From assembly GCA_963826825.1 (NCBI GenBank), contig CAWGYV010000016.1, forward strand, positions 414,771 through 478,770: a stretch of DNA of 64,000 nucleotides, in the 5' to 3' direction. Position 1 is the stretch's first letter. Each line of letters opens with the position of its first letter. This DNA is from an uncultured Acidimicrobiia bacterium (GTDB taxonomy: Bacteria; Actinomycetota; Acidimicrobiia; Spongiisociales; DATADW01). Under the pieces are notes generated by a model, which saw only the letters and a program-made list of their open reading frames with translations, ran no database searches and was not told the DNA's origin. Positions 6,592 through 33,439 of the stretch are shown piece after piece. Both the position numbers and the translations under genes were made by a program.

Positions 6592-7479
6592 ATGCCGGAT
6601 CGTCCCCCGTTGACGTCACGCGCCCGCGACGCGCTCAGGGAACGGCTCTCGTTCACTGCTCGGCGGAGGATCGCCATCGCTCGGGTGACGGCGCGCCGTC
6701 CCACCTCGACGTGGCGGGCGCTCCCCGGGCTCTTGGTGATCGGCACCCAGCGGGGTGGCACCAGTTCTCTCTACCGATACCTCGGGTCTCACCCGCAGGT
6801 GGTGCCCTCGCTCCGCAAGGAGGTCGAGTACTTCACGCGGCGCTACACCGAAGGCGATGGTTGGTACCGGGCGCACTTCCCGCTTGCTACAGCCGAGGGA
6901 CCATGACCTTCGAGGCCGACCCGTACTACATGTTCCACCCCCTCGCCGCCGAGAGGGCGGCGAAACTGCTCCCAGACGCCCGGCTCGTGGTGATGCTGCG
7001 CGACCCGGTCAAGCGCGCCTTCTCCCATTGGCAGCACAACCGAAGGCTCGGTGTCGAGCCGCTCGACTTCGCCGCCGCGATCGAAGCGGAGCCCGAGCGG
7101 CTTGCCGGCGAGGAAGAGCGGATCATGGCCGACCCCGGCTACGACCCGTGGAACCACAACATGCTGTCCTACTCGGGTCGGGGCCGTTACGCCATCCAGC
7201 TGAAGAAGTGGCTGGAGCACTATCCCGAAGACCATCTTCTCGTGATTCGGAGCGAGGACTTCTACGCCGACACACCCGCCACCTTCGACCGAGTGGTGAG
7301 TTTCCTCCAACTGGAGCCGTGGCGGCCGTCCGAGTTCGCCAACTGGAGCTATTCGAGTAGCGGTGGACCGGCGAAGGAGAAGATCGACCCGGAGATCGCC
7401 ACGGCGCTCGCCGAGATCCTTCGCCGCCGACAACCGGGAGTTGGAGGCGATGCTGGGGTGGGATGCCAAATGGACCTGA
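6592..7479 (+). CDS. Sulfotransferase-family protein (frame breaks ~6900 and ~7425)
   Basis: A PAPS 5'-phosphosulfate loop (LLVIGTQRGGTSSLY), then LVVMLRDPVKRAFSHWQH and RGRYAIQLKKW. The C-terminus is recovered by shifting frame: FAADNRELEAMLGWDAKWT-stop at 7477..7479. Confidence 0.8.
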
Positions 7480-7483
7480 CCGC

Positions 7484-8754
7484 TCAGACGTGATGACTCA
7501 GACCTGACCGCTCAGCTACCACGTCGAGCGCTCGCAGGTAGAACCGCTCCACCCTCGCCGCCACCTCGTCGGCGTCGTACACGCTTGCCACCTCGTGGCG
7601 GGCGGCTGCGCCAAGCCGGTTCCGCTCCGCCGGGTCGGCGAAGAGTCGCGTCACCATCGCCGCGATCGCCGCCGGATCCTCTGCGGGAACGAGCACCCCG
7701 GTCTTGCCGTCGTCCACCACATCGCTCATCGGACGCCGGTCGGTGGTCACGACGGGGAGCGCCCGGCCCATCGCCTGGAGCAGCGAGACACCCAGACCCT
7801 CGAACAGCGAGGGGAAGACGAACACGTCGGCGGCGCCCAACAAGCCGGGGCACATCGGAACGCCGATCGAGGAGCATGACCCGGTCGGCGAGACCGAGTT
7901 GTTCGATGAGGGACTCCACCATCGGGCTGGATGCCCCGGGCCGACCCGCCACCAGGAGCACGGCGCCCGGAACCTGCTCCAAGATCGCCGGCATCGCCTC
8001 GATCAGGTAGCGGTGTCCCTTCTGAGGCTCGACCCGGCCCACGGCGAGCACGACGAAGGCATCGTCGGCCAAGCCCAGCTCGGAGAGGATCGATCGCCTC
8101 GCCTCGTCGCGGGAGCCGCCGGCGTCGAGCTCGGCCAGGTCGATCCCCCGCGGGATGACATCGATCCGTTCGGGGCGCAGCCCGACGACGCTCTGCCACG
8201 ACTCGGCAACCGCCGGGGTGAGCGCCTGGAAGCGCCTCACTGTTCTCATCGTGATCCGATCGAGCAGCCGGTGACCCTCCAGCTTGAGCTTGGTCACCCC
8301 CGGGTTGTCGGTCACCCGCACCGGCTCGTGGCTTATGTTGACCAGGCTCTCCACCACCGGGATTCGACGCCGGGCTCCGACCAGCCGGGCGGCCAGCCCG
8401 GCGTTGGCCAGCGAACCGTGGATCAGGTGGGGCCGGATCTCGGCGACCGCCCGGTCGAAGGTCCGCACCAGGTCCCAGCGGCCCGACGGCCGGGCGTCGC
8501 CCTGGTAGAGGAGGTGTATCGGCACCGTTCTCGGGCACTTCGTCGCTCCGGCTCCCGACTGTGTCCTCGTAGACCACGGCCAGGGCGTGACGGAGGCGCG
8601 GGTCGGTGAACCGGCGCAGGTTGGCGACGAGCTGCTGTTCAGCGCCGCCAACCGTGCCGAGCGAGTCGATCACGTGCAGTACGAGCCGGGGACATCGGGC
8701 GGCGAGGGTAACCCGGGGGATGTCCGCCGCGAGCCCGTCGAGGTCGCTTGACAC
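7484..8754 (-). CDS. Glycosyltransferase family 4 / group 1 (frame breaks ~8530 and ~7850)
   Basis: The N-terminus reads RLVLHVIDSLGTVGGAEQQ. The middle reads VLAVGRVEPQKGHRYLIEAM...LLVAGRPG. The C-terminus reads LLGAADVFVFPSLFEGLGVSLLQAMGRALPVVTTD (the EX7E region). The three parts lie in three frames. Confidence 0.85.
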
Positions 8755-14772: not shown

Positions 14773-14987
14773 GCTCTCCCAGATGGCTGCGCGGGCATGG
14801 TACCGCCTCGCAGACCGCAGGCCTCTTGTCCATGGTGGTTGCCGGTAATGGGTAAGGTGCCTTGCCCGCTCTCAAGCTTCTGGCTCTTACCGCCGATTAT
14901 GGCAACTAGGTCACACCGAGCCTGCCGCAATCGGTTCGGGCGGTGCCTTTGAGGGGCGGTCCAAAGATCAATGAGTGGTTTTAGATC

Positions 14988-15865: not shown

Positions 15866-15866
15866 G

Positions 15867-16268
15867 ATGCGCTACGACCTGAACCTTCCTCATCTCGACC
15901 GCAGAGTCGGACAAGCGCGACTTCTGGAGTGGCACGTCGCCGAAGGCTCCGAGGTCGGCTACGGGGACCCCCTGGTCGACATCCAAGCCGATGAGCTCAC
16001 CACGCTCGAGGTTCACCGTTCGGCCAAGTACCTGACCAAGCTGGCGGGACGCAAGGTGGCAACCGGAACCAAGACCACCCGGGTGAGTCTGGTGTGGCGG
16101 CTGGTTTCATCCGACCGCGGGGTGGTACGCCATCTGGTGGCAGCACCGGGCGACATGATCGAAATCGGTGACTCGCTCGCCGTGCTCACCACCACTACCG
16201 ATGAGGATCCCGCCGCGGGGCCCTCAGGGAAGTTCCGCGTGGTAACCGAGCCGGTGGCCCAATCGTGA
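15867..16268 (+). CDS. Biotinyl/lipoyl-like domain protein lacking the modifiable Lys
   Basis: MRYDLNLPHLDRRVGQARLLEWHVAEGSEVGYGDPLVDIQADELTTLEV...VAAPGDMIEIGDSLAVL. The position of the E-T-D-K motif reads Q-A-D-E. GGAG lies upstream of ATG 15867. Confidence 0.55.
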   Translation: MRYDLNLPHLDRRVGQARLLEWHVAEGSEVGYGDPLVDIQADELTTLEVHRSAKYLTKLAGRKVATGTKTTRVSLVWRLVSSDRGVVRHLVAAPGDMIEIGDSLAVLTTTTDEDPAAGPSGKFRVVTEPVAQS

Positions 16269-16278
16269 GGAGAGCTAG

Positions 16279-17316
16279 ATGAGCGCCGTGGCGCGCAACG
16301 TGCAGCGGCTTGTCCGCAAGATCGCCGGTGAGAACTCGGCGATCGAGCGCCGGCTACGCGGCACATACCGGCAGGCAGCGCTTCGCAACGAGGCCGGCGA
16401 TGACTCGAAGACCGAGCGTGCGATGCGCGGCGTGGTCTCCAGCGCACGGTTCCGCCTCCGCGGCGAGCTCACCACCCGCAGCGCCACCGTCTTCCGCCGA
16501 GGCAAGAGCGAAAACCGGTTGGGCATCTACATGCTCGGTGCCTGTGACCTTCCCACCGTCTTCGCAGCAAAGCCCTTCATCGAGCAAGACCTCAACGGGG
16601 TGTGCGCCATCATGCGCGACGGTGAGGTGGCAGATGCTCGTTCGGATTTTCTGCTCCAGGCACTCGACGGTGTAGACCCGGCTGCGGTCGCCGAGGCCGG
16701 TCAGTATCTCAAGCTGCCGCCCGATGCCTTCGAGCCGCGCCTGTTCAGACCCGAGTTCCGCATCCCGGCGGTTCCGTCTCTCGGCAGCTTCCCCAAGACC
16801 GTGGTGGTTCTGTCCATCGCCGCCGACCTGAGCCGCAGCCTGTACCGCAACAACGAGCACGGCTACCTGGTGGACCCGGGGGGTTGGTGGTTGACCACGC
16901 CGATGGGAGAGGTGATGGAGCACCTCGACAGGGTGGCGTGGATGAGGGAGAACTTCACCGCCATGGGCAAGATCCCCGTCGAGGAATTCCATCACAACAT
17001 GGGCCGGATCGTCACCGAGGTCAAGCAGCGAACCGGGGCGCATGTCGTGGTTTTCAACACCCTGACCGTGAGCCCGGGCGACCTGACCCACACCTACCAG
17101 TTCGTCAGAATCCCCCAGAACCTGAGACGTATCGAGTTCGACCTGGCCCTGGCCGACATCGCAGCCCAACACGACGCATCGGTGGTGGATGTCGACCGTG
17201 TGCTCAAGCTCGAGGGTGTCAAGGAGCAGATCGACTTCGCCCACTTCCCCATGGACCGGATGATCCCAATCGCCCGCGAGTTCCACCGCGTGCTGCGCGA
17301 TAGGGAGATCATCTGA
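16279..17316 (+). CDS. Hypothetical protein (345 aa), SGNH-like C-terminal region
   Basis: The ORF is intact. It has a D-x-x-H-like motif near the C-terminus (IDFAHFP). I recognise no family with confidence. Confidence 0.5.
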   Translation: MSAVARNVQRLVRKIAGENSAIERRLRGTYRQAALRNEAGDDSKTERAMRGVVSSARFRLRGELTTRSATVFRRGKSENRLGIYMLGACDLPTVFAAKPFIEQDLNGVCAIMRDGEVADARSDFLLQALDGVDPAAVAEAGQYLKLPPDAFEPRLFRPEFRIPAVPSLGSFPKTVVVLSIAADLSRSLYRNNEHGYLVDPGGWWLTTPMGEVMEHLDRVAWMRENFTAMGKIPVEEFHHNMGRIVTEVKQRTGAHVVVFNTLTVSPGDLTHTYQFVRIPQNLRRIEFDLALADIAAQHDASVVDVDRVLKLEGVKEQIDFAHFPMDRMIPIAREFHRVLRDREII

Positions 17317-17328: not shown

Positions 17329-18481
17329 TCAGTCGGTGTAGAAGCGGGCGATCTCCTCACCGATCGGTCCAACTGCCGCCTCGGTGAGGTGGCCCAGGTC
17401 GTCTCTGTAGTCAGCGCAGCTACGCACCTCGGGCGAGGCGCCCTTTTCGACGCCAACCGTGAGTTCGATCGCCTGGTCGATGATCGGATGGTTGACCGAG
17501 GCCCTGACACTCTCCCTGCGGTCCCCCGGACATAGCTGCTCGTCGGGACCGCCGACGATTGGCTGAAGCACGATTGCCGCGCCGGGGTACTTGACCCTGG
17601 CGGTGGCTACCGCCGACGTGATGTCCTCGACCCACTGCGCCACCGGACGCTCGGCACCCGTCACCGTAAGCAACAGCCGGCTCGGGGTCCCGTCCGAGCA
17701 CCCGATACGACCTGATTGCTCCAACCGACGAAACCCGGATCGGCCCATTTCTCGATCGTTGCTCCCGACTCCCAGAGGAGGTCCCACCCGGCGTCGCCTG
17801 CCACCGGCTCGAAGCCACCGCCGGTGAACCACTGCTCGGTCTGACTGAACCCGACCACCCTGGTGCAGGAGAAGGGGCCTGTTGCCGACAAGCCGAGCGC
17901 CCGGGCCAGGAAGCTCGCCATCTGGTCGCGCCTCACCGCCTGTTCCGGGCAGAAACGGATCCCGGACTCGTCGCACCCGGCGGTGATTGCTGCTGCGGCG
18001 ATGGAGTTGATGGCCTCCTCGTGAACGCTCTCCTCGTCGTCCACGAAGATGTCGGCGCTCGAAGCGGGGAATGCAAAGCCCCGCACCAAGAGACTTGCCA
18101 TCTGCGCCCTACTGAGCGCCTCAGACGGGCAGAAGCGCGTTCCGGCCGGGTTGCAGCCGATGGTGATGCCCGCCTGGGCAATGGCGTTGATCGCCTCCTC
18201 GTGAACGCTCTCCTCGTCGTCACCAAAAGCATCGGTCCCGGATATGGGGAGGTCAAGCGCTCGCTGCAGGAAGCTCGCCATCTGCCCCCTGGTCACCGCG
18301 CGGCCGGGGCAATAGAGGTTCGTGCTGCAGCCAACGGTGATGCCTTCGGCGGCGATCGCCTCGATGGCCGCCTCGTGGACATTGCCATCGTCGTCATCAA
18401 AGGTCCCCGCTGCTGTCGCCGGCGCGGCGGGGATCAACCAAACCGTAACCGCCAGGATGGCGGCGCCGGCCAGGCGGATCC

Positions 18482-18497
<16 letters not shown>
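17329..18497 (-). CDS. Secreted protein with 3 SLH repeats plus an SGNH-like C-terminal domain (frame break ~17705)
   Basis: A signal peptide (MRQPVRIRLAGAAILAVTVWLIPAAPATAAG) is followed by three copies of F.DD....H..AI.A.A..GIT.GC......FCP...V.R.QMASFL.RA. The C-terminal domain (VVGFSQTEQW...DDLGHLTEAA) continues in ORF 17329..17976. Confidence 0.8.
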
Positions 18498-20259
<1,762 letters not shown>

Positions 20260-20278
<19 letters not shown>

Positions 20279-20904
20279 TCGAGCGCCCGGACCAGGAATG
20301 AGGCCATCTGTCCCCTGGTCACCGGCTCATTTGGGCAAAAGCTGGTGCCGCCGCATCCCTGGGTGATCCCCGCTTCGGCCAGCGCGTTGATCTCCGCCTG
20401 GAACGTGCTGGTGCCGTCATCGGTGAAACGGTCGGGGCCGGGGGGGAGGTCCAGAGTTCGGGCGAGGAAGGCTGCCATCTGCCCGCGGGTCACCGAACTG
20501 TCGGGGCAGTAGGAGGATCCGCTGCCGCACCCGGTGGTGATCCCCACCGATGCGATCGAGTTGATCGAATCCTCGTGGGTGTTCCCCGAGTCGTCCCCGA
20601 AGTAGTCGAACTCGGCGTCGGGGGTGACGAACGATCGGGCGAGGAACGACGCCATCTGTGCCCTGGTCACCGGCTCCTCCGGGCAGAACAGTGTCCCTGC
20701 GTCGTTGCAACCCTTGGTGATCCCCCATTGGGCGAGGGCGACGATCGAGTCGGCGTGCACCGATCCTGCGATGTCGACGAACGGCTGGGGCTGCTGGGCG
20801 AGGGCCGGTGAGGGCGCCATCGTCATCGAGGTGACTGCGGACAGCGTCAGCCAGAGCACCCAACAACGCGGCCGCCTGGCTAGGCCCCTTCGGGATGTGG
20901 TCAC
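20260..20904 (-). CDS. Secreted protein consisting of 3 SLH repeats
   Basis: Intact, 214 aa, with a signal peptide ending ALAQQ. The three repeats include FVDIAGSVHADSIVALAQWGITKGCNDAGTLFCPEEPVTRAQMASFLARSF. The stop overlaps the beta-helix gene start by 19 nt. Confidence 0.85.
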
Positions 20905-21030: not shown

Positions 21031-22257
21031 TCACACCGATACCACCTCAGGGTCGAGACCCATCTCTGTGAGCTGATTCGTGATCTCCTCTTGGTAGATC
21101 TGGTTCATCAGTACCACCAGGTCGGGCTTGAGCTCGATGAGACTCTCGGGGGCGAGCACCTCGTGGCCGGTCCCGGGGAGGAACATCCCCTGCTTGTAGG
21201 GGTTGATGTCTACCACTGCCGACACGCTGTCGCCGAGGCCGATTGTGGTGAGGAAGGCGACCGCCTTGGACCCGCCACCCCAGATGGCGACACGCTCGCC
21301 GCGTTCGGCCGAACCCTCTAGCCGTTGGCGCCAGCTCTCGATGTGGCGGTTGGCGCCGGAGGCGAAGGCGAGCACCATCTCGCCGACTTCGTCGGGTGAC
21401 TCCTCGACCGGCAGCGGATCGACTGATCCGCCGATGACCGAGTCGGCCAGCAGGTACTGGTCACCGAACCCGAGTGCGATATCGGTGACGGTGAACCCCG
21501 CTTCCCTGAGGGCTCGCCCCAGCGAGCCGGGTGTGTAGTACGAGCAGTGCTCGTAGTAGATGTCCCAGAAGGCGAACTCCCTCAAGACCCGTCCCGTGTC
21601 GGGGACCTCGGTGAACATCGCTGCTCCGTCGGTTGCCTCCACGGACCGTCGCAGCAGCCTGAAGAAGTCGCCGACCGGGGCGATGTGCTCCATGGTGTGG
21701 CGGGTGATGACCAGGTCGCCGGTCAGCGGGGTGTGCTCCTCACCGTAGAAAGCGCGGATCAGCTCAACCGAGCCATCGCCCGCTTCCCCAACCGGCGGCC
21801 TCCCGAATCCTGGGTCGATCCCAATGCCCCGGCCGATGCCGAGCTCGGCCAGGAGCATCAAGAAGTCCCCCTTGCCGCTCCCCACCTCGAGCACGGTCCG
21901 CCCTTCGAGGCCGTACCTCTCGACGAGATCGCCGGCGAGTCGGCGGGCGAAGTTGGTGAACAGCGGCGAGAAGGCCTGCGACTCCTCGGTGGGCTGTCCG
22001 TAGTCCACCTTGTCGGGCTCGAAGCAGATGTTGGTGATGAACCCGCAACGGGGGCACAGCCCGAGCACAAGATCGCCGATGGGGTAGGCAGACGCCGACG
22101 GTTGGTCGGGCAGCAACACACAGCTTTGTGTCGGGATCTCCCCCGCGGCGAAGAAGGAGAGCAGCCCGGTGGCGCCGCAACTCGGGCAGGTAGCTGAGGC
22201 ACCGAGATCGAGTAGGTCGTCGCCCACCAGAGGGCGCAGGTCGGTCGGGCCGATCAC
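21031..22257 (-). CDS. Class I SAM-dependent methyltransferase with N-terminal Zn-ribbon and C-methyltransferase C-terminal domain (NDP-hexose C-methyltransferase-like)
   Basis: The GTG start overlaps the upstream stop (GTGA). It carries CPSCGATG...CPRCGF, the SAM motif VLEVGSGKGDFL and the C-terminal domain VAIWGGGSKAVAFL. In the ORF track it is fused to the next gene as one 829-aa ORF. Confidence 0.8.
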   Translation of the reverse strand: MIGPTDLRPLVGDDLLDLGASATCPSCGATGLLSFFAAGEIPTQSCVLLPDQPSASAYPIGDLVLGLCPRCGFITNICFEPDKVDYGQPTEESQAFSPLFTNFARRLAGDLVERYGLEGRTVLEVGSGKGDFLMLLAELGIGRGIGIDPGFGRPPVGEAGDGSVELIRAFYGEEHTPLTGDLVITRHTMEHIAPVGDFFRLLRRSVEATDGAAMFTEVPDTGRVLREFAFWDIYYEHCSYYTPGSLGRALREAGFTVTDIALGFGDQYLLADSVIGGSVDPLPVEESPDEVGEMVLAFASGANRHIESWRQRLEGSAERGERVAIWGGGSKAVAFLTTIGLGDSVSAVVDINPYKQGMFLPGTGHEVLAPESLIELKPDLVVLMNQIYQEEITNQLTEMGLDPEVVSV

Positions 22258-23520
22258 AGGATGGTGGGTTGCGGCACAGGGACGATGAAACGCCCGCCCC
22301 TTGCGGCGTACTCCGCTTGCTGGCGCATGATCTCGTCCCTGAAGTTCCAGGCGAGTATCAGCAGATAGTCGGGCGGGTCGTCGAGAAGCCGCTCCGGGGA
22401 AAAGATGGGCAGCCGCACTCCTGGCATATGCAGTCCGTGTTTGTGGTCGTTCCGATCCACAACGTAATTCGAGGTACTCCGCCGCCCCGGTGTAGTTGAG
22501 AAGCGTGGCGCCCTTGGCCGCGGCGCCGTAGGCAGCGATTTTTGCCCCCTCGGAGGTGAGCCTGGAGAGGAGGTCGATCAGGTCCTGGCGGACCTGTTCG
22601 ACCCGATCGGAGAAGGCGGCGTAGTACGCAGCCTCTGTGAGCCCGATCCTTCGCTCCTCCTCGAGGTACTCCTCCACCGACGGCTCGGCTTCGGCCACCG
22701 CCGAGAAGGTCACACGGAGCGACCCACCGTGGATGGGGAAGTGCCTCACCCGGATCAAATCGAGTCCGTGTCTGCCAAAGAGAGCGGCGAGCGCGGTGAC
22801 GGAGAAAATGCAGTGGTGCTCGTGATAGATGGTGTCGAACTCGCAGTTATCCACCATGTCGCGCACGTAGGGGACCTCGATCTCGACCCTCCCCTCGGGG
22901 GCGAGGATCGTCGCGATGCCGGCGACGAACCGGTTCTGGTCGGGGACATGGGCGAGGACGTTGTTGCCCAGGACCACATCCGCCCTCACTCCGTCCGCCA
23001 GCAATCGATGCGCCAACTCGGGCGTGAAGAAGTCCCTGATCGTGGGGATGCCCCTCTGCTCGGCAGCGGCTGCAGGACCGGGCGCCGGGTCGATCCCGAG
23101 GACGGGCACCCCGGCCTTGAGGAACCATTGGAGCAGGTAGCCGTCATTGCTGGCCAGCTCCACCACCAGGTTGTGGTCGCCAAGGCCGAGCTCGTCGACC
23201 AATCCTTCGGCATGGGTCCGGGAGTGCTCCAGCACCTGATCGGAGAAGGAGGAAAAGTAGGGATAGTCCTCGTCGAAAAGCACGGTGGGTGGCACTGTCT
23301 CCTTGATCTGGACGAGCGAGCACCGCGGGCAAAACACCACGGTGAGCGGATAGTGGTGCTCGTCGGCGGCGGGGAGACCCGGTGCCACCAGCTCGTCGGC
23401 CAGCGGGACCATCCCGAGATCCAGCACGGGGACCAGATCGGTCGCCCCGCAGCTGCGGCACCCGGCTATTACCTCATGCACAGGTACATCATGCACGGGC
23501 ACATCATGCACGGGCATCAC
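22254..23520 (-). CDS. Class I SAM-dependent methyltransferase with Zn-ribbon, paralog of the previous gene (frame break ~22465)
   Basis: It carries CRSCGATD...CPRCSLVQ, VVELASNDGYLL and AAYGAAAKGATLLNY. The C-terminus (VVDRNDHKHGLHMPGVRLPIFSPERL...FIVPVPQPTIL) lies in ORF 22254..22460. Confidence 0.8.
23471..23515 (-). repeat. 3 x 15-bp tandem repeat encoding (VHDVP)-type pentapeptides at the methyltransferase 5' end
   Basis: The units acctcatgcacaggt / acatcatgcacgggc / acatcatgcacgggc give the protein N-terminus MMPVHDVPVHDVPVHEV. Confidence 0.9.
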
Positions 23521-24547
23521 CCGTCGAGCTCATGAGACGGAGATCCTGGCCCAGCACGCCGGCGTCCTGGAGCGACCTCACGTGTTTGACGCGGAGGAGC
23601 TTCCCCAAGAAGGCGTCGGTCCCGATACCGTAGTTGACGAAAGCTTCGTGAAGCTGCTCGGCACCACGCCTCACCGTCCACTGCGTGGCGAAGGCGGGTA
23701 GGACTTCCTCGATCTTCGAGCAGTCGACCCGGTAGTCCCTGATGTCGGGCCCCGCGGTGTCGGAGAGGACTATTTCGCTCCCCGGCACCATCTCCTGGAC
23801 TATGTCGGCCACATCGCGGATCTGGTAGTTCTCCTCCGAGCTTCCCACGTTGAGCACCTGGTCGTGGATCCGTTCCCGCGGCGCTTCGACGGCAGCGACA
23901 AATGCCCGGGAGATGTCCTCGATGTGCACCAGCGGTCGCCAGGGACTGCCATCGCTCTTCATCAACACCCGACCCTCGGTCACCGCAAAGCCCACGAGAT
24001 TGTTGACGACCAGGTCGGCCCTGACCCGCGGCGAGTAGCCGTATGCGGTGGCGCTTCGCAGGCAGGCGGGGCTGAACGAGGTCGAGGCCAGCGCCCGGAT
24101 GTCTCCCTCTGCATTGATCTTGGAGAACCCGTATGGAGTCACCGGGTTTATCTCCGACTCCTCGGTCACGAACGCTCCCGGTGACGCGCCGTAGATGCTG
24201 CACGACGATGAGAAGACGAAGCGCTCGACACCCACGGCGGCGGCGATCTCCGCCAAGCGCGCTGCCGCATGGTGGTTGATGGCATAGGTCGTGTCGGCGT
24301 CGAGGTCTCCCACCGGGTCGTTGGAGATCCCGGCGAGATGGCAGATCGCCTCCACACCGGCGATGTCGTCCGGCTCGACGTCGCGCAGGTCCTTGCGGAC
24401 CGCGGGAATGTCGGGCCAGTCGGGGCCGAGAGTGCAGTCGGCGAACATGTAGCTGTCGAAGCCGACGACCTCGTGGCCGGCCTGCTGCAACAGTCGCACC
24501 AGCACCGTTCCGATATAGCCGTTGTGGCCGGTGACCATGACCCGCAT
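23504..24547 (-). CDS. NAD-dependent epimerase/dehydratase family (extended SDR)
   Basis: MRVMVTGHNGYIGTVL is the Rossmann GxxGxxG motif and YGFSKINAE is the YxxxK catalytic motif. The protein is 347 aa from ATG 24547; the ORF-track extension is rejected. Confidence 0.85.
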   Translation of the reverse strand: MRVMVTGHNGYIGTVLVRLLQQAGHEVVGFDSYMFADCTLGPDWPDIPAVRKDLRDVEPDDIAGVEAICHLAGISNDPVGDLDADTTYAINHHAAARLAEIAAAVGVERFVFSSSCSIYGASPGAFVTEESEINPVTPYGFSKINAEGDIRALASTSFSPACLRSATAYGYSPRVRADLVVNNLVGFAVTEGRVLMKSDGSPWRPLVHIEDISRAFVAAVEAPRERIHDQVLNVGSSEENYQIRDVADIVQEMVPGSEIVLSDTAGPDIRDYRVDCSKIEEVLPAFATQWTVRRGAEQLHEAFVNYGIGTDAFLGKLLRVKHVRSLQDAGVLGQDLRLMSSTGDARA

Positions 24548-24552
24548 GGCCT

Positions 24553-25323
24553 TTAGTCCCAGATCTTCCAGGGCGGGTCGCCGCCATCCCAGAGCCGCTC
24601 CAACAGTGCCTTGTCCCTCATGGTGTCCATGCACTGCCAGAAGCCCTCGTGGCAGTAGGCCATCAACTCGCCGTCCGCGGCCAGATTCTCCATCGGCTCC
24701 CGCTCCCAGAGCGTGTCGTCGCCCTCGATGTAGTCGAAAACCCCGGGCTCGAGGACGAAGAATGCTCCGTTGATCCACCCGACGTCGAGCGGCTTCTCCG
24801 AGAAGTCCACCACCCGATTCCCCTCGATATGGAGGCCGCCAAATCGAGCGGGTGGGTGGACCGCGGTCACAGTGGCGAGCCTGCCGTGTGATCGGTGGAA
24901 GGCGAGCAGCCGGGAGAGGTCGATGTCGGACACCCCGTCTCCCCAGGTGAGCATGAATGTCTCATCTCCCAGCCAGGGCGCCAGCCGCTTGATCCGCCCG
25001 CCCGTATCGGTCCACCGGCCGGTCTCGATCAGGTCGACCACCCACTTCTCGGCCGCACCACCGTCGTGGACCCTGACATCGCCTGTGGAGACATCGACGC
25101 GGAGGCTGGAGGTCGTGGTGAGGTAGTCGGTGAAGAACAGCTTTATTTGATCGCCCTTGTAGCCGAGGGCAATGACGAATTGGTTGTACCCGAAATGGTC
25201 GTATTGGCGCATGATGTGCCACAGGATCGGATGGCCGCCGATCTCCACCATCGGCTTGGGCCTGATCTCGGTCTCCTCCGCCAGACGGCTTCCCAGACCG
25301 CCGGCGAGGATCGCCACCTTCAT
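24553..25323 (-). CDS. rfbF: Glucose-1-phosphate cytidylyltransferase
   Basis: Intact, 256 aa. MKVAILAGGLGSRLAEETEIRPKPMVEIGGHPILWHIMRQY...FWQCMDTMRDK is the typical RfbF sequence. Confidence 0.9.
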   Translation of the reverse strand: MKVAILAGGLGSRLAEETEIRPKPMVEIGGHPILWHIMRQYDHFGYNQFVIALGYKGDQIKLFFTDYLTTTSSLRVDVSTGDVRVHDGGAAEKWVVDLIETGRWTDTGGRIKRLAPWLGDETFMLTWGDGVSDIDLSRLLAFHRSHGRLATVTAVHPPARFGGLHIEGNRVVDFSEKPLDVGWINGAFFVLEPGVFDYIEGDDTLWEREPMENLAADGELMAYCHEGFWQCMDTMRDKALLERLWDGGDPPWKIWD

Positions 25324-25401
25324 GACGCAGTCATCGCGATGCGCTCCCCTCCCTCACTCAGCGTGGCGATCGTACCACTCGGGGCGACTCGTCGTTTCTG
25401 T

Positions 25402-26253
25402 ATGGGCCCGCCTACGCTCCCGGCCCTCATGCCCACAAACCAGCGGCCCACGAAGTTTCAGAAGCGCGTCACCGCGCTCAAACGCAAGGCACACCTCGGT
25501 GTCGAGCATCGCTCTGAATTCGACAATATCTACCATTGCTGTGTCCAGCGGACCGCCAGCCAGTGGCTCCGCAACATCTACAACGACGAGGTCTTCTATC
25601 GAAACACCGGACTGCGAGCCATCCCATACAAGGAGATGGGTTTGGCCGGTGCCCACATCGACGGACCATTCCCCAAGCGGACGATCGTCACCCACCTCTA
25701 CATCTCCTACCCAACCTACCTCTCGATCCCTAAGCCACGAGCGCACCGGTTCTTCTTCGTCCAGCGCGATCCGAGGGATGCGGTGGTCTCTTGGTACTTC
25801 GCTGCCCGCTACTCGCACAAGCCGATGGGGGCGATCCCGGAGATGCGCCGCGACCTGTCGTCCATGTCGCAGGAGGAGGGCATCCACTACATGATCGACG
25901 CCATCAGCGCACGCGGCTACTTCGATGCGCTCCGCTCGTGGACGGAAGTCGAGCCATCGGATTCGTTCCGTATCTTCCGCTATGAGGACATCGCCCTCGA
26001 CCTCCGCGGCTTCCTCGGCGATCTGTTCAAATTCCTCAAGATTCCGGCGCAATCTGCCGAGTTGGATTCGTTGGCGGAGCGCAAGAGCTTCCAGCAGGCG
26101 AGCGGCGGCCGCCAACAAGGCGAAGAGGACATACACGCCCATTTGAGGAAGGGAACTCCGGGCGACTGGCGGACCGCGCTCAATGACAGCGCCCTCGACC
26201 ACCTGCGCCGGGTATCGGGTGACCTGGTGGAGGTTCTGGGGTACGAGACATGA
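25402..26253 (+). CDS. Sulfotransferase-domain protein
   Basis: It carries FFFVQRDPRDAVVSWYF and the C-terminal HLRKGTPGDWR motif. Only the C-terminal ~280 aa of ORF 24895..26253 is credible. The start is ATG 25402 or 25429. Confidence 0.75.
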   Translation: MGPPTLPALMPTNQRPTKFQKRVTALKRKAHLGVEHRSEFDNIYHCCVQRTASQWLRNIYNDEVFYRNTGLRAIPYKEMGLAGAHIDGPFPKRTIVTHLYISYPTYLSIPKPRAHRFFFVQRDPRDAVVSWYFAARYSHKPMGAIPEMRRDLSSMSQEEGIHYMIDAISARGYFDALRSWTEVEPSDSFRIFRYEDIALDLRGFLGDLFKFLKIPAQSAELDSLAERKSFQQASGGRQQGEEDIHAHLRKGTPGDWRTALNDSALDHLRRVSGDLVEVLGYET

Positions 26254-26280: not shown

Positions 26281-27198
26281 ATGGGAATGACCCCACTACC
26301 CAAAGTGTCTATCGGCTTACCGGTCTACAACGGCGAGAACCACATCGGTGATGCCATCGAGTCGATCGCATCGCAGTCTTTCGCAGACTTCGAACTGATC
26401 ATCTCCGACAACGCATCCACCGACTCCACCAGCGAGATCTGTCGGGGGTGGGCCGAGCGGGACGGACGGATCCGCTACTTCCGCAAGCCCACGAACATCG
26501 GGGCCGCGCCCAATTACCACCACGTCTTCCGGATGGCACGGGCCGATCTCTTCAAGTGGTCGGCGCACGACGACATGCTCGACCCGGGCTTCCTCGAGTC
26601 TTGCGTCGCCGCCCTCGACGATGATGCCGGCGCGGTGCTCGCATACACGGCGGCACGTCAGGTGGACGGCGATGGGAAGCCGCTCGGTGACATCCCACGC
26701 TTCTCGCAGGTGGTCTCCGCCGATCCCGTGGAGCGGTTCCGCGAAGTGGTCCGCCGGGAGCGGCTCAACCTCCCCATTTTCGGGCTTGTCAGGTCAGCGG
26801 CTCTCCGGGAGACCGCGTTACCCGGCTCCTACCACGCCAGTGCCCGGGTCCAACTCGCAGAACTGGCACTGCGCGGCACGTTCGCCTTCGTGCCGACTGT
26901 TCACTTCATCCATCGCAACCACCCTGCGGGCTCGCTGCGCGCCTATGACTCGGTCCACGCCCTCCGCAGCTGGTACGACACCGGCCGATCGGCTGGGACG
27001 TACATGCCCAGGTGGGAGTACATGAGCGGTCTGATGGGCGCTGCAACCCGCGCACCACTGTCGTGGCGGCAACGGGTCGACTGCTACGGAGAGGCCTTCA
27101 GGTGGGCGTTTGAGAAGCGCCGCAGCCTGGCATTGGATGTGGCCGAGGCGGGACGGCAATTGCTCGGCGGAGCAGTGCCTCGCCTCCGTCGCACCTGA
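26281..27198 (+). CDS. Glycosyltransferase family 2
   Basis: Intact, 305 aa. VSIGLPVYNGENHIGDAIESIASQSFADFELIISDNASTDST includes the D-x-D type region. Confidence 0.88.
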   Translation: MGMTPLPKVSIGLPVYNGENHIGDAIESIASQSFADFELIISDNASTDSTSEICRGWAERDGRIRYFRKPTNIGAAPNYHHVFRMARADLFKWSAHDDMLDPGFLESCVAALDDDAGAVLAYTAARQVDGDGKPLGDIPRFSQVVSADPVERFREVVRRERLNLPIFGLVRSAALRETALPGSYHASARVQLAELALRGTFAFVPTVHFIHRNHPAGSLRAYDSVHALRSWYDTGRSAGTYMPRWEYMSGLMGAATRAPLSWRQRVDCYGEAFRWAFEKRRSLALDVAEAGRQLLGGAVPRLRRT

Positions 27199-27226: not shown

Positions 27227-27259
27227 CTGTACGGACTACCCCTCAGCCGGCGGGCGTTA

Positions 27260-28145
27260 TCAGCCGGATGACCAGGGCTTGTCGGGGGCACCGTCTTCGC
27301 TCCGCCGACGCGTAGCGCCCAGCGCCACCGCGCCAGCCACCACTAGCGCCGCTCCCAGGCTCAGCCAACCACCACCGGCCCCGGGCCCGGTAAAGGGCAG
27401 GGTCTGCGCCACGGTGGTGGCGGAAATCGAGGTGCTGGTTATCTGAATCGAGGTGGTCGGCGTCGTTGGGTCGGTTGTCGAGGTGGTGGTCCGTCGGCGT
27501 GGTCTCCGGTGTCGTAGTCGTGGTCTCCGATGTTGTGGTCGTGGTCTCCGATGTTGTGGTCGTGGCCTCCGATGTTGTAGTCGTGGCCTCCGATGTCGTA
27601 GTCGTGGCCTCCGATGTTGTAGTCGTGGTCTGTTGAGCGGTGCAGGTGGCGGTCACCGAGTAGTCCACAGAGGTGGCAACAATCCCATTGGCGTCGGGAA
27701 CCATCACGTTGTACAGCTCGATGGTTGCGCCAAGCACCAGCGTGGCGTCCTGGAGGACGGTCTCGACAACATTGGGTAGCGACTCGGTCTGGAGAACGTC
27801 GGTCTCGTTGACGCCGGTGGCGATCACCCCGAAGTTGTTGAGATGGACGCTCTGGCCATTGGCGGCCGCCACGCTGAACGTGCACGTCCTCCCAATCAGG
27901 TCCCCATAGCCGTTGGCCGCCAGGTCGAAGGTGGTGAGCAGCCGCCTTACCCCCTCTTGGTCGGTCTGGTCCACCGGACGTGGGACGGAGAAATCCGCCC
28001 CGGTGAAGCTGAAGCTGACCGTCTGAGCCATGGCCGGTACCGCCAAAACGGCAGGCACCGCCACCAGCGCGGCCACGAACACTGCTCCGAGACGCCTTTT
28101 CAGCCCGGACAGGTTGAAAGAACCCCGGCTGCGTGATGCACGCAC
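27260..28145 (-). CDS. LPXTG-type cell-wall-anchored surface protein, copy A (frame break ~27480)
   Basis: The signal peptide is LGAVFVAALVAVPAVLAVPAMAQ. The N-domain reads FSFTGADFSVPRPVDQTDQEGVRR, followed by (TTTTSEx)6. After a frame shift the C-terminus reads ...TLPFTGPGAGGGWLSLGAALVVAGAVALGATRRRSEDGAPDKPWSSG-stop at 27260. Confidence 0.8.
27499..27624 (-). repeat. 6 x 21-bp tandem repeat encoding TTTTSE(A/T) heptads
   Basis: Six units of gtggtctccgatgttgtggtc and close variants are head to tail, in frame within LPXTG-A. Confidence 0.95.
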
Positions 28146-28461: not shown

Positions 28462-29598
28462 TCAGCCGGAGGAGAAGGGCTTGTCGGGAGCGGTGTCCTC
28501 GCTCCGGCGCCTGGCCGCTCCTAGCGCCACTGCGCCCGCAATCAAGAGCGCCGCACCCAGGCTCAGCCAACCACCGCCACCGGGCCCGGTGTTGGGCAAC
28601 GTCGGGGGCACCGTCGTCACGACCGGGATGGTCGTGGGTGTGGTGGTGACGGTCGTCTGGAAGGGGGCGTTGCAAAGCGTCGACGCAGGCGGGTAGGGCA
28701 CCTCGAACACCTCGGTCTGAGGGTTGAGCGTGAGCTGGATGAAGATTGGCCGGTAACTCTCGGGCGGCCACGTGATCGGGTCGGTCGAGTCGTCGTAGCC
28801 CGGCCAGAGGCGGTTGACCGACACGTTCCCCTGGGCATCGGCGTTGACCGTCATCACCTCGATCTCGTTCATGTCACGGTCGTAGATGTGGAGCTGGATC
28901 CCGGTGGCGTTTGCCGGCCAGCCGCTCGACTCGACCACCAGGTGGGGTACGGCGTTGATGCACTCGCCGGTTGCCACCGGGACCGTGGGCGGCGCCGTCG
29001 TGGTCGTAGGCACCGTGGTTGATGTGGTAGTGGTTGACGAGGTGGTGGACGTGGTCGTGGTCGATGAGGTTGTCGATGTGGTCGTGGAAGTTGTCGTTGT
29101 GGTGGTCTGGTCTGCGCAGAACACCAACACCGTGTAGTCCACGGAGGTGCCCACGATGTCATCGTCATCGGGCATCCATGATGTTGTAGAGCTCCATCGT
29201 CTCGCCGAGGACGAGGGTGGGGTCGTCGAGCACGGTTCTCAGGACATTGGGCTCCGATTCCGTCTCGAGGACGTCGGTCTCGCTGCCCCCGGTCACGATC
29301 AGCCCGAGGTTGTTGACGTGGACGCTGTCGCCATTGGCCGCCAACACGATGATCCTGCAGGTCTGTCCGACCAGGTCCTCGAACCCGTTGGCCACCAGGT
29401 CAAAGCTGGCGACAAACCGCTGCACGCCTTCCTGGTCGGTCTGATCGGCGTCACGGGGGATGAAGAAGTCCGACCCCGTGAAGGTGAAGTCGGGAGTGGG
29501 AGCTGAGCCTGAGCCGGCACTGCCAGCACGAGAGGCACCGCCACCAACGCGGCAACCACGACTGCCGCCAAACGTCTTCTCAGCCCCGAAGCGGACAA
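28462..29598 (-). CDS. LPXTG-type cell-wall-anchored surface protein, copy B, with an extra middle domain (frame breaks ~29500 and ~29170)
   Basis: The signal peptide is LAAVVVAALVAVPLVLAVPAQAQ and the N-domain reads FTFTGSDFFIPRDADQTDQEGVQR. A Thr/Ser-rich linker and an extra domain follow. The anchor reads LPNTGPGGGGWLSLGAALLIAGAVALGAARRRSEDTAPDKPFSSG-stop. Confidence 0.85.
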
Positions 29599-29768: not shown

Positions 29769-31077
29769 TTACCGGAGATCCTTGCGGTGGTCGGTGAAGC
29801 GGCGTGCCTTGAGGTCGAACCGGGGAAGCGTCCCCATCGGAACCGTCGTGGCCAGCGGCCGGACTCCGATCCCGGTGTGGATCTCGCGGGCTACGGCGGC
29901 GGCGAGGGCGTCGGGATCACCCGTGGTGACCTCGATGCGCAGCTCCATCACGTCGAGCTCTTCCTTGCGGTAGACGTCGACAGCGAACTCGCCGATCTCG
30001 GGGAAGCGCCGCACCAGGTTCTCCACTGCGCTGGGGAAGATGTTGACGCCGCGCACGATGAGCACGTCGTCGACCCTCCCGGTGACACCACCCTCGAAGC
30101 GCATGAAGGTCCTGCCGTCCTCGCTGGGTTCGGAGGCGACGACCACATGGTCGCCGGTGCGGTAGCGGATCACCGGGAACCCGGGGCGACCCAGGTTGGT
30201 GATGATCAGCTCGCCGTCGTTCGACTCCTCACCGGTGGCGGGATCGATCACCTCGGCGAGGAACTCCGCCTCGTTGACGAACAGCCCGTTCTGGAGTTGT
30301 GACTCGAAGCCCCAGGCACCGACCTCGGTTGCGCCGGCATGGTCGTAGGCCCGTGCCCCCCACGCCTCTTCGATCCTCGCCCGGGTCGCCGGGATCCCTG
30401 CCCCGGGCTCGCCGGCGTGGATGGCCACTCGCACACCCGAGTTGGCGATGTCGATCCCCTCCTCGGCTGCCACCTCGGCGAGGTGGAGGGCGTAGGTGGG
30501 GGTGCACACCAGCACCGAGATGTCGTTGACCAGGATCGCCTTGAGCCGCTGCAGCGACGACATCCCACCGCCGGGGAAGGCGAGGGCGCCGATGAGACGG
30601 GCACCTTCATAGGCGCTCCAGAAACCGATGAACGGCCCGAACGAGAAGGCGAAGAAGATGCGGTCCATCGAGGTGACACCGGCACTGCGGTACACCTGCG
30701 ACCAGCAGCGGGCCCACCACCGCCAGCTGTCCTCGGTGTCGAGGCAGCGCAGCGGCTCACCCGTGGTACCGGACGTCTGATGGATCCGGGTGTACCGGGT
30801 GCGGGCATAGGTGAGGTTGGTCCCGTATGGCGGATTGGAGATCTGGTCGGTGGCCAGTTCCTGCTTGGTGGTGAACGGGATCTTCTTCAGGTCGTCCATG
30901 GTGCGGACGTCGTCGGAGCTGCGAATGCCGGCACGACCCAGCTTGCCCCGGTAGAAGGCGTTGCCGTCGAGCACCTCGTCCAGCAGAAGCTGAAAGCGGC
31001 GCAAGCTGGACCTCCTGCAAGGCGTTGCGGCCCAGCGTCTCGGCGAACCCGGTCGAAAACTCGAACTCCATCGTCAT
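29769..31077 (-). CDS. Adenylate-forming enzyme of the phenylacetate-CoA ligase / CapK / F390-synthetase-like family (frame break ~31004)
   Basis: It carries IHQTSGTTGEPLR, DHAGATEVG, RYRTGD and VDDVLIVRGVNIFP. An extra N-terminal 24 aa (MTMEFEFSTGFAETLGRNALQEVQ) lies in the adjacent frame, with GGAGGG upstream. Confidence 0.82.
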
Positions 31078-31103
31078 CCCTCCATGTCTCCTTGACCCCG
31101 CCC

Positions 31104-31716: not shown

Positions 31717-31717
31717 C

Positions 31718-33435: not shown

Positions 33436-33439
33436 CTCG

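What the first reader, a model, noticed from the sequence alone, without database searches (positions are those of the whole stretch)
21031..26253. CDP-hexose branch with two Zn-ribbon C-methyltransferases plus two sulfotransferases predicts a C-methylated, sulfated glycan
The minus-strand operon reads rfbF (CDP-glucose formation), an extended SDR, methyltransferase 1 and methyltransferase 2, with overlapping or nearly abutting junctions. Both methyltransferases have the Cys4 ribbon, a SAM domain and the C-methyltransferase C-terminal domain, the architecture seen in NDP-hexose C-3 methyltransferases. A sulfotransferase (25402..26253) is transcribed divergently and a GT2 follows it. A second sulfotransferase and a GT4 lie at 6.6-8.8 kb. 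No classical CDP-glucose 4,6-dehydratase motif set was recognised, so the SDR may fill that role. Sulfated glycans are uncommon in bacteria outside a few lineages.
Basis: partly seen in the sequence, partly recalled or inferred. Interest (0 to 1): 0.6.

Follow-up and report, generated by a model that had tools for sequence, protein, structure and literature searches.

The report
Dehydratase-free CDP-glucose C-methyl sugar cassette plus sulfotransferase
A soil actinobacterium carries a compact gene set, shared by hundreds of species in many phyla but never studied, that most likely turns glucose into a methyl-branched sugar for a cell-surface glycan, and in this lineage a sulfate-adding enzyme sits inside the same locus.

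Summary
On the minus strand lie rfbF (24553-25323), an extended SDR (23504-24547), MT1 (22254-23520) and MT2 (21031-22257), with tight or overlapping junctions. A sulfotransferase (ST1) and a GT2 run divergently. A second sulfotransferase and a GT4 lie at 6.6-8.7 kb.

Both methyltransferases are full-length relatives of NDP-sugar C-3 methyltransferases. MT1 scores 1e-91 against MtmC. The MT2 model matches MtmC, KijD1 and TcaB9 at TM about 0.8.

Three points change the reading.
- The SDR is not a 4,6-dehydratase. It lacks the Asp-Glu pair, and its nearest structures are C-4 oxidising enzymes (Cj1427, MoeE5, TunA).
- rfbF-SDR-MT1-MT2 is a conserved cassette. It appears in the same order in 64 of 67 informative loci across more than ten phyla, often with a third methyltransferase and a GT2, and never with a dehydratase or reductase.
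- The sulfotransferase link is confined to this clade, apart from one Terriglobales locus.

MT1 is frame-broken by one extra base at 22467. Four related sequences lack it, and housekeeping genes in the window are also broken, so it is probably an assembly error. PAPS-binding motifs are intact, but PAPS synthesis could not be checked. Verdict: partly supported, and a new variant of a known kind.

The parts
24553..25323 (-). rfbF, glucose-1-phosphate cytidylyltransferase (makes CDP-D-glucose); first gene of the operon
   Evidence: TIGR02623 equivalog at 353 bits against a cutoff of 300, covering 1-255 of 255. Pfam NTP_transferase. Homologues at 59-99% identity lead the cassette in 64 of 67 loci.
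23504..24547 (-). Extended SDR of the GalE/Cj1427 type; proposed CDP-glucose C-4 oxidoreductase, not a 4,6-dehydratase
   Evidence: Pfam Epimerase 3e-40. No TIGR02622 hit; the best NCBIfam match is GalE, below its cutoff. The best PDB sequence hit is 6vo6/6vo8 at 7.8e-27. The closest folds are MoeE5, Cj1427 and TunA at TM 0.81-0.85, and the first 4,6-dehydratase ranks 31st. FSSSCSxYG and YGxSK are invariant in the family, with no Asp-Glu.
22254..23520 (-). MT1, an NDP-hexose C-3-methyltransferase homologue (Zn ribbon + SAM domain + Methyltransf_14), frame-broken by one extra base at 22467
   Evidence: Repaired protein scores 1.1e-91 to MtmC (4rv9), 6e-77 to KijD1 and 8e-74 to TcaB9 over its full length. 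Pfam Methyltransf_13, _23 and _14. The extra T in CTCGAA[T]TACG is absent from L004, L005, L001 and a soil metagenome contig.
21031..22257 (-). MT2, a distant full-length paralogue of sugar C-methyltransferases (Cys4, SAM motif, YxEH)
   Evidence: 7.8e-19 to MtmC across residues 20-393. AlphaFold model pLDDT 92; Foldseek TM 0.76-0.81 only to MtmC, KijD1 and TcaB9, with the next methyltransferases at 0.37 or below. Invariant in the family: C24, C27, C68, C71, G126, G128, D148, H187, E190, H191, E236, H237. 1575 cluster representatives at E<=1e-30.
25324..25428 (.). Divergent intergenic region between rfbF and ST1 (presumed promoters)
   Evidence: Gene arrangement. No sigma-70 consensus match, which says little for this phylum.
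25429..26253 (+). ST1, a PAPS-type sulfotransferase (an alternative start is at 25402); sits 27 nt upstream of GT2 on the same strand
   Evidence: Sulfotransfer_1 3e-20. Family motifs CCxQ[K/R]TASQW, RDPRDxVVSWY and RKGxxGDW are conserved. The family is small, with 56 proteins found. Other members lie in polysaccharide loci.
26281..27198 (+). GT2 glycosyltransferase, the cassette-associated transferase
   Evidence: Glycos_transf_2 4e-25. Homologues at 33-49% identity fall within 10 kb of the cassette in 43 loci, or 24 of the 42 loci with full flanks.
6592..7493 (+). ST2, second sulfotransferase, frame-broken near 6900
   Evidence: Three-frame reading recovers GTQRGGTSSL (5'-PSB) upstream of the frameshift. 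The repaired protein matches Sulfotransfer_3 at 2e-15 and Sulfotransfer_1 at 6e-11.
7484..8651 (-). GT4 glycosyltransferase, convergent with ST2, frame-broken near 7.84-7.93 kb
   Evidence: Pfam Glyco_transf_4 and Glycos_transf_1. The coding frame switches between 7846 and 7936.

Best explanation
The minus-strand operon is one copy of a widespread, uncharacterised cassette that makes a C-methyl-branched CDP-hexose from glucose-1-phosphate without removing the 6-hydroxyl.

Proposed steps, each marked by how well it is supported:
1. RfbF makes CDP-D-glucose. This is shown at the level of an equivalog HMM.
2. The GalE/Cj1427-type SDR oxidises C-4 to give CDP-4-keto-glucose. This is inferred from the missing dehydratase residues, the nearest structures, and the fact that it is the only redox enzyme in the cassette.
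3. MT1 methylates C-3 of the 4-keto sugar, as its close relatives MtmC, KijD1 and TcaB9 do. This is inferred from homology and conserved catalytic residues.
4. MT2 adds a second C-methyl group, most likely at C-5, the other carbon next to the ketone. This is inference, and the position is speculative.
5. The ketone is reduced back, either by NADH retained on the SDR (a ping-pong cycle like that of Cj1427) or by an MtmC-like reductase activity of MT1. This is speculative.
6. The cassette-linked GT2 transfers the sugar to a cell-envelope glycan. This is inferred from co-occurrence.

In this clade a PAPS-type sulfotransferase (ST1) sits between rfbF and GT2, immediately upstream of GT2 on the same strand. 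The glycan is therefore probably sulfated as well (inferred from gene position only). The MT1 frameshift is most likely an assembly error.
For: - RfbF is above the TIGR02623 cutoff.
- The SDR does not hit TIGR02622. Its family has invariant SSSCSxYG and YGxSK with no Asp-Glu. Its nearest sequences and folds are Cj1427 (C-4 dehydrogenase), MoeE5 (4-epimerase) and TunA. Cj1427's ping-pong chemistry with tightly bound NADH is described in PMC10680097.
- MT1 scores 1e-91 to MtmC over its full length and keeps the Cys4 motif, the ExxxNDG SAM motif and FDTIYHEH.
- The MT2 fold matches only the three known sugar C-3 methyltransferases (TM about 0.8). Its Cys4, SAM-motif, His and E-H residues are invariant.
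- In 64 of 67 informative loci from Actinomycetota, Cyanobacteria, Planctomycetota, Acidobacteriota, Chloroflexota, Patescibacteria, Proteobacteria and Bathyarchaeia, RfbF, SDR and MT1 lie upstream of MT2 on the same strand.
- ORF clustering found no other conserved neighbour except GT2. Only 7 other SDR-like ORFs occur in about 80 loci, and none has a dehydratase motif.
- Fused MT2-MT3 proteins exist.
- ST1 is 27 nt upstream of GT2. In L024, a related Acidimicrobiia locus without ST1, the same GT2 lies directly divergent from rfbF.
- ST1's PAPS-binding motifs are conserved, and other family members sit in polysaccharide export loci.
- The extra base at 22467 is absent from four related sequences. 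ppc, ffh, comM and trmD/rplS are also frame-broken in the window.
Against: - There is no biochemical data for any member of the cassette.
- To my knowledge, every characterised enzyme of the MT1 family uses a dTDP- (or GDP-) 4-keto-6-deoxy sugar, not a CDP-4-keto-hexose.
- No 4-ketoreductase is present, so the last step relies on an unproven dual role.
- A dehydratase could be encoded elsewhere in the genome.
- About half of MT1 orthologues have Gln in place of the Glu of YxEH.
- Outside this clade, only one of about 80 cassette loci (L027) has a sulfotransferase nearby.
- No PAPS synthesis gene lies in the 64-kb window.
- ST1 has Arg where most of its family has Lys in the 5'-PSB motif.
- MT1 as sequenced is broken.
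Confidence: 0.5

Rival explanations
1. This is a classical 6-deoxy route. A CDP-glucose 4,6-dehydratase encoded elsewhere supplies CDP-4-keto-6-deoxyglucose, the methyltransferases methylate it, and the cassette SDR is the final 4-ketoreductase or epimerase. The product would be a 6-deoxy-3-C-methyl hexose of the vinelose, virenose or evalose type.
For: All characterised relatives of MT1 act on 4-keto-6-deoxy sugars (PDB descriptions). In Synechocystis (slr0983-slr0984-slr0985-slr1610) and S. meliloti (SMb21416-18), rfbF is coupled to a true dehydratase and a C-methyltransferase. This route also explains where the final reduction comes from.
Against: No dehydratase lies within 10 kb in about 80 loci from many phyla, although rfbF itself is always linked. 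None is present in the 64-kb window. The SDR's nearest structures are NAD+-dependent C-4 oxidising enzymes rather than reductases such as RMD, which ranks 44th.
Confidence: 0.2
2. The SDR is a plain CDP-glucose 4-epimerase. One or both methyltransferases then methylate oxygen, or another acceptor, so no branched-chain sugar is made.
For: The SDR is about as similar to 4-epimerases (MoeE5, BcUGAepi, GalE) as to Cj1427. MT2 is only 20-26% identical to known C-methyltransferases. Gln replaces the catalytic-site Glu in many MT1 orthologues.
Against: MT1 is about 45% identical to MtmC, by my reading of the alignment, and scores 1e-91. The catalytic His and the Tyr-x-Glu-His constellation are kept in MT1, MT2 and MT3. 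I know of no O-methyltransferase with this three-domain fold.
Confidence: 0.1
3. The sulfotransferases have nothing to do with the C-methyl sugar. ST1 and ST2 would sulfate a different glycan, lipid or small molecule, and their position is a local accident of this clade.
For: ST1 is found next to the cassette only in the window's own clade (L001, L004, L005), and one other locus (L027) has unrelated sulfotransferase ORFs. ST2 lies 14 kb away among housekeeping genes. Other ST1-family members lie in loci without the cassette.
Against: ST1 sits exactly between rfbF and the cassette's own GT2, 27 nt upstream of GT2 on the same strand, and this arrangement is kept in three relatives at 83-95% nucleotide identity. 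The other ST1-family loci are polysaccharide loci.
Confidence: 0.3
4. The locus is decaying. MT1 (together with ST2 and GT4) is a true pseudogene and the pathway is no longer functional in this organism.
For: Frameshifts occur in MT1 (22467), ST2 (about 6900) and GT4 (about 7.85 kb).
Against: Essential genes (ppc, ffh, trmD/rplS) are also frame-broken in the window, which points to sequence error. The relatives carry frameshifts in different genes: MT2 is truncated in L004, and ST1 and GT2 are split in L005. The closest genomes are long-contig MAGs from one project. The MT1 site is intact in four related sequences. The rest of MT1 is 97% identical to the L004 protein and has no other lesions.
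Confidence: 0.07

Closest known systems
NDP-hexose C-3-methyltransferases of the TylC3 family (solved: MtmC 4rv9, KijD1 5t64, TcaB9 3ndi)
   Same: They share the three-domain build: a Cys4 zinc ribbon, a class I SAM domain and the Methyltransf_14 C-terminal domain. The catalytic His and the Y-x-E-H motif are kept. MT1 scores 1e-91 and the MT2 fold matches at TM about 0.8.
   Different: The known enzymes use dTDP-4-keto-(2/3,)6-deoxy sugars from antibiotic pathways that begin with a 4,6-dehydratase. Here the nucleotide is CDP, no dehydratase is linked, and two (elsewhere three) paralogues act in series. MT2 is only 20-26% identical to the solved enzymes.
CDP-glucose + dehydratase + C-methyltransferase clusters (Synechocystis slr0983/slr0984/slr0985/slr1610; S. 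meliloti SMb21416-21418)
   Same: rfbF is coupled to a putative C-3 methyltransferase in a surface-polysaccharide context.
   Different: Those clusters carry a genuine CDP-glucose 4,6-dehydratase (and an RfbC-like epimerase) and a single methyltransferase. The present cassette instead has a GalE/Cj1427-like SDR and two or three methyltransferases. Neither system has been characterised biochemically.
Cj1427, GDP-D-glycero-D-manno-heptose C-4 dehydrogenase of Campylobacter jejuni (6vo6, 6vo8)
   Same: It is the best PDB sequence hit of the SDR (7.8e-27) and among its top fold matches (TM 0.83-0.85). It produces a free 4-keto NDP-sugar without dehydration, for downstream enzymes that work by enolisation.
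   Different: Identity is only 26%. Cj1427 acts on a GDP-heptose, recycles its bound NADH with alpha-ketoglutarate, and is followed by a separate C-4 reductase (Cj1428). The cassette has no such reductase.
CDP-3,6-dideoxyhexose pathway (RfbF/DdhA, RfbG/DdhB, and later steps)
   Same: The first enzyme and the first intermediate, CDP-D-glucose, are the same.
   Different: No DdhB, DdhC or DdhD homologues are present, and the SDR fails the dehydratase tests.
PAPS-dependent carbohydrate sulfotransferases (Sulfotransfer_1/3; for example cytosolic SULTs, and TPST, whose 5'-PSB motif PRSGTT uses Arg; that detail is from my own knowledge)
   Same: ST1 and ST2 have the 5'-PSB, 3'-PB and RKGxxGxW motifs. 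ST1 also has a THL(Y) segment matching the catalytic THLP of SULTs.
   Different: ST1 belongs to a very small family known only from metagenomes (56 proteins) with a CCxQ[K/R]TASQW motif. Similarity to solved sulfotransferases is weak (4e-6). The acceptor is unknown.

Membership tests
Glucose-1-phosphate cytidylyltransferase (TIGR02623) | Full-length match above the curated equivalog cutoff | tested here: met
   353 bits against a cutoff of 300.25, covering 1-255 of 255.
CDP-glucose 4,6-dehydratase (RfbG/DdhB, TIGR02622) | Match to the equivalog model | tested here: not met
   TIGR02622 is not among the 23 NCBIfam hits of the SDR. The best hit is GalE at 97 bits, below its cutoff.
CDP-glucose 4,6-dehydratase (RfbG/DdhB, TIGR02622) | Asp-Glu acid/base pair directly after the catalytic Ser/Thr (the S/T-D-E-x-Y-G motif of NDP-hexose 4,6-dehydratases; motif from my own knowledge) | tested here: not met
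   The window SDR reads FSSSCSIYG. SSSCSxYG is invariant in 26 and 66 family members.
NDP-hexose C-methyltransferase (TylC3/TcaB9 family) | N-terminal Cys4 zinc-binding domain | tested here: met
   MT1 matches Methyltransf_13 at 7e-20 and carries CRSCG...CPRCS. In MT2, C24, C27, C68 and C71 are invariant, and the model aligns with the zinc domain of the solved enzymes.
NDP-hexose C-methyltransferase (TylC3/TcaB9 family) | Class I SAM domain followed by the Methyltransf_14 C-terminal domain | tested here: met
   MT1 matches Methyltransf_14 at 5e-57 over 1-160 of 160 after repair. MT2 matches it at 4e-16, plus Methyltransf_23 at 7e-18.
NDP-hexose C-methyltransferase (TylC3/TcaB9 family) | Catalytic residues probed in TcaB9 (H181, Y222, E224, H225; mutant names appear in the PDB descriptions) | tested here: met
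   MT1 has NVLAHV and FDTIYHEH. MT2 has RHTMEHI and WDIYYEH, with H187, H191, E236 and H237 invariant. The Tyr76 equivalent in MT2 could not be aligned with confidence.
NDP-hexose C-methyltransferase (TylC3/TcaB9 family) | Methyl transfer to C-3 (or C-5) of an NDP-4-keto sugar | not testable with these tools
   This needs an enzyme assay and NMR.
Cj1427-type NDP-sugar C-4 dehydrogenase | Extended SDR with a Ser/Tyr/Lys triad, NAD-type Rossmann motif, and closest similarity to Cj1427 | tested here: inconclusive
   Cj1427 is the best PDB sequence hit (7.8e-27) and a top fold match. However MoeE5, TunA and the 4-epimerases score almost the same.
Cj1427-type NDP-sugar C-4 dehydrogenase | Release of a free 4-keto product and tightly bound NADH | not testable with these tools
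   This is a biochemical property (PMC10680097).
PAPS-dependent sulfotransferase (Sulfotransfer_1/3) | 5'-phosphosulfate-binding loop (PKxGTT-like) | tested here: met
   ST1 has VQRTASQW, where most of its family has QKTASQW. ST2 has GTQRGGTSSL after frame repair. Arg replaces Lys in both, as it does in TPST (from my own knowledge).
PAPS-dependent sulfotransferase (Sulfotransfer_1/3) | 3'-phosphate-binding motif (RDPxD..S) and the C-terminal RKGxxGxW motif | tested here: met
   In ST1, R113, D114, P115, R116, D117, S121, R240, G242, G245 and W247 are invariant in the family. ST2 has LRDPVKRAFSH.
PAPS-dependent sulfotransferase (Sulfotransfer_1/3) | A PAPS supply in the same genome (ATP sulfurylase and APS kinase) | not testable with these tools
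   None lies in the 64-kb window.

The most novel reading that the evidence does not exclude
rfbF-SDR-MT1-MT2(-MT3)-GT2 is a pathway found across many phyla, including some archaea, and never characterised. It would make a new class of sugar: a hexose that keeps its 6-OH and carries two or three C-methyl branches. The route would be redox-neutral, with a single SDR oxidising CDP-glucose at C-4 and later using the same bound NADH to reduce the methylated 4-keto product. In this soil actinobacterial clade the resulting surface glycan would also be sulfated.
Probability: 0.3. Interest if true: 0.75.

Novelty: new variant of a known kind. Interest (0 to 1): 0.55.

Why it matters
Branched-chain (C-methyl) sugars are known almost only from antibiotic pathways and a few lipopolysaccharides, and as far as I know always on 6-deoxy scaffolds made through a 4,6-dehydratase.

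This cassette suggests something different: a common but unnoticed surface sugar and a new way of feeding C-methyltransferases. It lacks the dehydratase and occurs in at least 595 species-level genomes, from soil Actinomycetota to cyanobacteria, Planctomycetota and Bathyarchaeia.

The question is directly testable, because cultured carriers exist. They include Gaiella occulta, Anabaena subtropica, Moorena producens and Thermanaerothrix solaris.

The added sulfotransferase would give a sulfated, methyl-branched glycan next to SLH-domain and Thr-rich LPXTG surface proteins in a little-known soil lineage. That bears on cell-envelope charge, and possibly on phage and predator recognition.

Tried and rejected
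- An exact-protein look-up of the window's RfbF found nothing on record.
- Literature searches found no paper on the dehydratase-free cassette. The term sets were: 'glucose-1-phosphate cytidylyltransferase' + 'C-methyltransferase'; 'CDP-glucose' + 'C-methyl' + 'branched'; 'C-methyltransferase' + CDP + sugar + TcaB9; and 'CDP-glucose' + methyltransferase + '4-keto'. They returned only annotations of the Synechocystis and Sinorhizobium clusters that do contain a dehydratase.
- A search for '6VO6' was useless and PMC7509852 is not held. The fold-search descriptions later confirmed that 6vo6 and 6vo8 are Cj1427.
- The promoter and terminator scan gave nothing above chance.
- My first repair of MT1 (deleting an A, giving L-D-Y) was replaced by the repair that the relatives support (deleting a T at 22467, giving L-E-Y).
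- My first regex-based motif counts for MT1, MT2 and MT3 were too strict. I replaced them with alignment-based consensus.
- The homologue search with the SDR returned only generic source names such as 'nucleoside-diphosphate-sugar epimerase'.
- I considered and rejected the SDR as UDP-sulfoquinovose-synthase-like, since only a weak N-terminal hit was found.
- I could not search the rest of the source genome for cysC, cysD, cysN or ddhB.

Full report
**The window.** The window is about 67% G+C. Its closest public relatives are long-contig metagenome-assembled genomes labelled 'uncultured Actinomycetes'. L004 is 95% identical in nucleotides over window positions 11.1-33.7 kb, and more distant homologues are mostly labelled Acidimicrobiia. 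A soil metagenome run holds related sequence.

**Sequence quality.** A codon-usage frame plot and Pfam scans show that many genes are frame-broken, housekeeping genes among them.
- comM is split in two.
- ppc is in three pieces.
- ffh is truncated.
- trmD and rplS read as one fused ORF.
- An ABC transporter is also broken.

The sequence therefore carries indel errors, and frameshifts in the locus have to be read with that in mind.

**Observation: the operon.** The described genes are present.
- rfbF (24553-25323, minus strand) passes the curated equivalog model for glucose-1-phosphate cytidylyltransferase.
- An extended SDR (23504-24547) starts 5 nt after rfbF ends.
- MT1 starts 14-17 nt before the SDR stop.
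- MT2 starts at a GTGA overlap with the MT1 stop.

MT1 and MT2 read as one 829-aa ORF only because of a single extra T at 22467 (CTCGAA[T]TACG). It shifts MT1 out of frame inside its C-terminal domain. L004, L005 and L001 lack this base and encode an intact MT1 of 416-421 aa. A contig from an independent soil metagenome, about 96% identical, also lacks it.

**Observation: the other genes.**
- ST1 (25429-26253; alternative start at 25402) runs divergently from rfbF, and GT2 (26281-27198) follows it.
- The second sulfotransferase is really 6592-7493. A frameshift near 6900 had hidden its PAPS loop (GTQRGGTSSL).
- The GT4 (7484-8651) is frame-broken too.

**The methyltransferases.** Repaired MT1 has all three domains of sugar C-methyltransferases. 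It aligns end to end with MtmC (1e-91), KijD1 and TcaB9, and keeps the Cys4 motif, the SAM motif and FDTIYHEH.

MT2 is much more distant, at 8e-19. Its high-confidence model (pLDDT 92) nevertheless superposes over the full length on those three enzymes alone (TM 0.76-0.81), while the next methyltransferases reach only 0.37 or less. Its four cysteines, its SAM-motif glycines and Asp148, H187, H191 and the E236-H237 pair are invariant in its family.

**The SDR.** This is where the interpretation changes.
- It does not match the CDP-glucose 4,6-dehydratase model.
- The segment that carries Ser/Thr-Asp-Glu in dehydratases reads SSSCS, and this is invariant across the family. YGxSK supplies the Tyr and Lys.
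- By sequence its best solved relative is Cj1427.
- By fold the top matches are MoeE5, Cj1427 and TunA, followed by 4-epimerases. The first 4,6-dehydratase ranks 31st.

All the top matches work by NAD+-dependent oxidation at C-4. Cj1427 releases the 4-keto sugar for downstream enzymes and recycles its tightly bound NADH in a ping-pong manner (PMC10680097).

**Comparative genomics.** In the 80 best loci, which span more than ten phyla including Bathyarchaeia, RfbF, SDR and MT1 lie upstream of MT2 on the same strand in 64 of the 67 loci with enough flanking sequence.
- A third, MT2-like paralogue follows in 39 of 65 loci.
- A GT2 homologous to the window's lies nearby in 24 of the 42 loci with full flanks.
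- All-against-all clustering of every ORF in these loci found no other conserved neighbour.
- An HMM of the cassette SDR found only seven other SDR-like ORFs, none with a dehydratase motif.
- Fused MT2-MT3 proteins exist, and the family has 1575 50%-identity clusters at E<=1e-30.
- Gaiella occulta, a cultured species, carries the cassette inside a typical Wzx-type polysaccharide locus.

Database names for all the components are generic, and I found no paper on the cassette. The nearest described arrangements are in Synechocystis (slr0983-slr0985 with slr1610) and S. meliloti (SMb21416-18). Both contain a true dehydratase and one methyltransferase, and both are known only from annotation and mutant phenotypes.

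**Mechanism.** C-methyltransferases of this family need a carbon next to a ketone. The cassette's only redox enzyme is a C-4-oxidising type of SDR, and no dehydratase or separate reductase travels with it. The most economical reading is as follows.
1. CDP-glucose is oxidised to CDP-4-keto-glucose.
2. MT1 methylates C-3.
3. MT2 methylates a second position, most likely C-5. Where a third methyltransferase is present, a third methylation follows.
4. The ketone is reduced, either by the NADH left on the SDR or by an MtmC-like reductase activity of MT1.
5. GT2 transfers the sugar.

Only the first enzyme's activity rests on an equivalog model. The rest is inference, and the methylation positions and the reduction step are speculative.

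**Sulfation.** ST1 belongs to a small family of 56 proteins, all from metagenomes. The family has a conserved 5'-PSB-like CCxQ[K/R]TASQW motif, an invariant RDPRDxVVSWY motif and an RKGxxGDW motif. The motifs are therefore not degenerate. More distant members lie beside a Wzx flippase or between wzm and wzt, which fits polysaccharide substrates.

Next to the cassette, ST1 occurs only in the window's own clade. One Terriglobales locus has other sulfotransferase ORFs nearby. In the window clade ST1 sits between rfbF and the cassette's GT2, 27 nt upstream of GT2. In L024, a related Acidimicrobiia locus, that GT2 lies directly divergent from rfbF. This position suggests functional coupling but does not prove it. 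No PAPS synthesis gene lies in the window, and the rest of the genome could not be examined.

**Verdict.** The most interesting result is the conserved dehydratase-free cassette itself, which I rate as a new variant of a known kind.

Noticed in passing
window 27243-28145 (-) and 28462-29175 (-): Two secreted Thr-rich repeat proteins (TTTTSEA repeats) lie directly beside ST1-GT2. The second has an LPNTG sortase motif followed by a membrane anchor, and the first seems frame-broken at its C-terminus. They are plausible O-glycosylation acceptors.
   Followed up: no
window 17661-20904 (-): Immediately downstream of MT2, two SLH-domain proteins flank a 598-aa beta-helix protein. That protein has a Tat signal, matches CEMIP_beta-hel and Beta_helix, and ends in a run of about 24 glycines. 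The arrangement is conserved in L001.
   Followed up: partly
window 4049-6175, 39685-40818, 50757-51893, 52977-55642, 9.7-11.56 kb: Housekeeping genes are frame-broken: comM is split, trmD and rplS read as one ORF, ffh is truncated, ppc is in three pieces, and an ABC-2 transporter is split. This points to indel errors in the assembly rather than gene decay.
   Followed up: partly
loci L015, L017, L023, L027 and others (39 of 65); proteins P0297, P0298: Most cassettes in other phyla carry a third methyltransferase, 31-40% identical to MT2, directly after MT2. It keeps the Cys4, RHxLEHI and WDIIYEHC motifs. Fused MT2-MT3 proteins of about 820 aa also exist. The window's clade lacks this third gene.
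   Followed up: partly
window 29769-34477 (-) and 12739-17316: One cluster holds two AMP-binding enzymes, a chorismate-pyruvate-lyase-like protein and a DAHP synthase. On the other side of the glycan genes lie two small PP-binding carrier proteins, alpha/beta hydrolases and a biotin/lipoyl-like protein. All are syntenic in L001. This looks like an aryl-acid or small-molecule pathway.
   Followed up: no
L027 2574-4454 (Terriglobales MAG): Two adjacent sulfotransferase-like ORFs lie 2.4 kb upstream of the cassette. This is the only association of a sulfotransferase with the cassette outside the window's clade.
   Followed up: no
L085 7136-10269: An ST1-family sulfotransferase sits between wzm (ABC2_membrane) and wzt (ABC_tran with Wzt_C). 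That position is typical of chain-terminating modifiers in ABC-transporter-dependent glycan export.
   Followed up: no
window 23476-23520 (-): The predicted MT1 N-terminus contains a short tandem peptide repeat (VHDVP VHDVP VHEV) ahead of the zinc ribbon. The relatives align only from residue 7 or 8, so the true start may lie further downstream.
   Followed up: no
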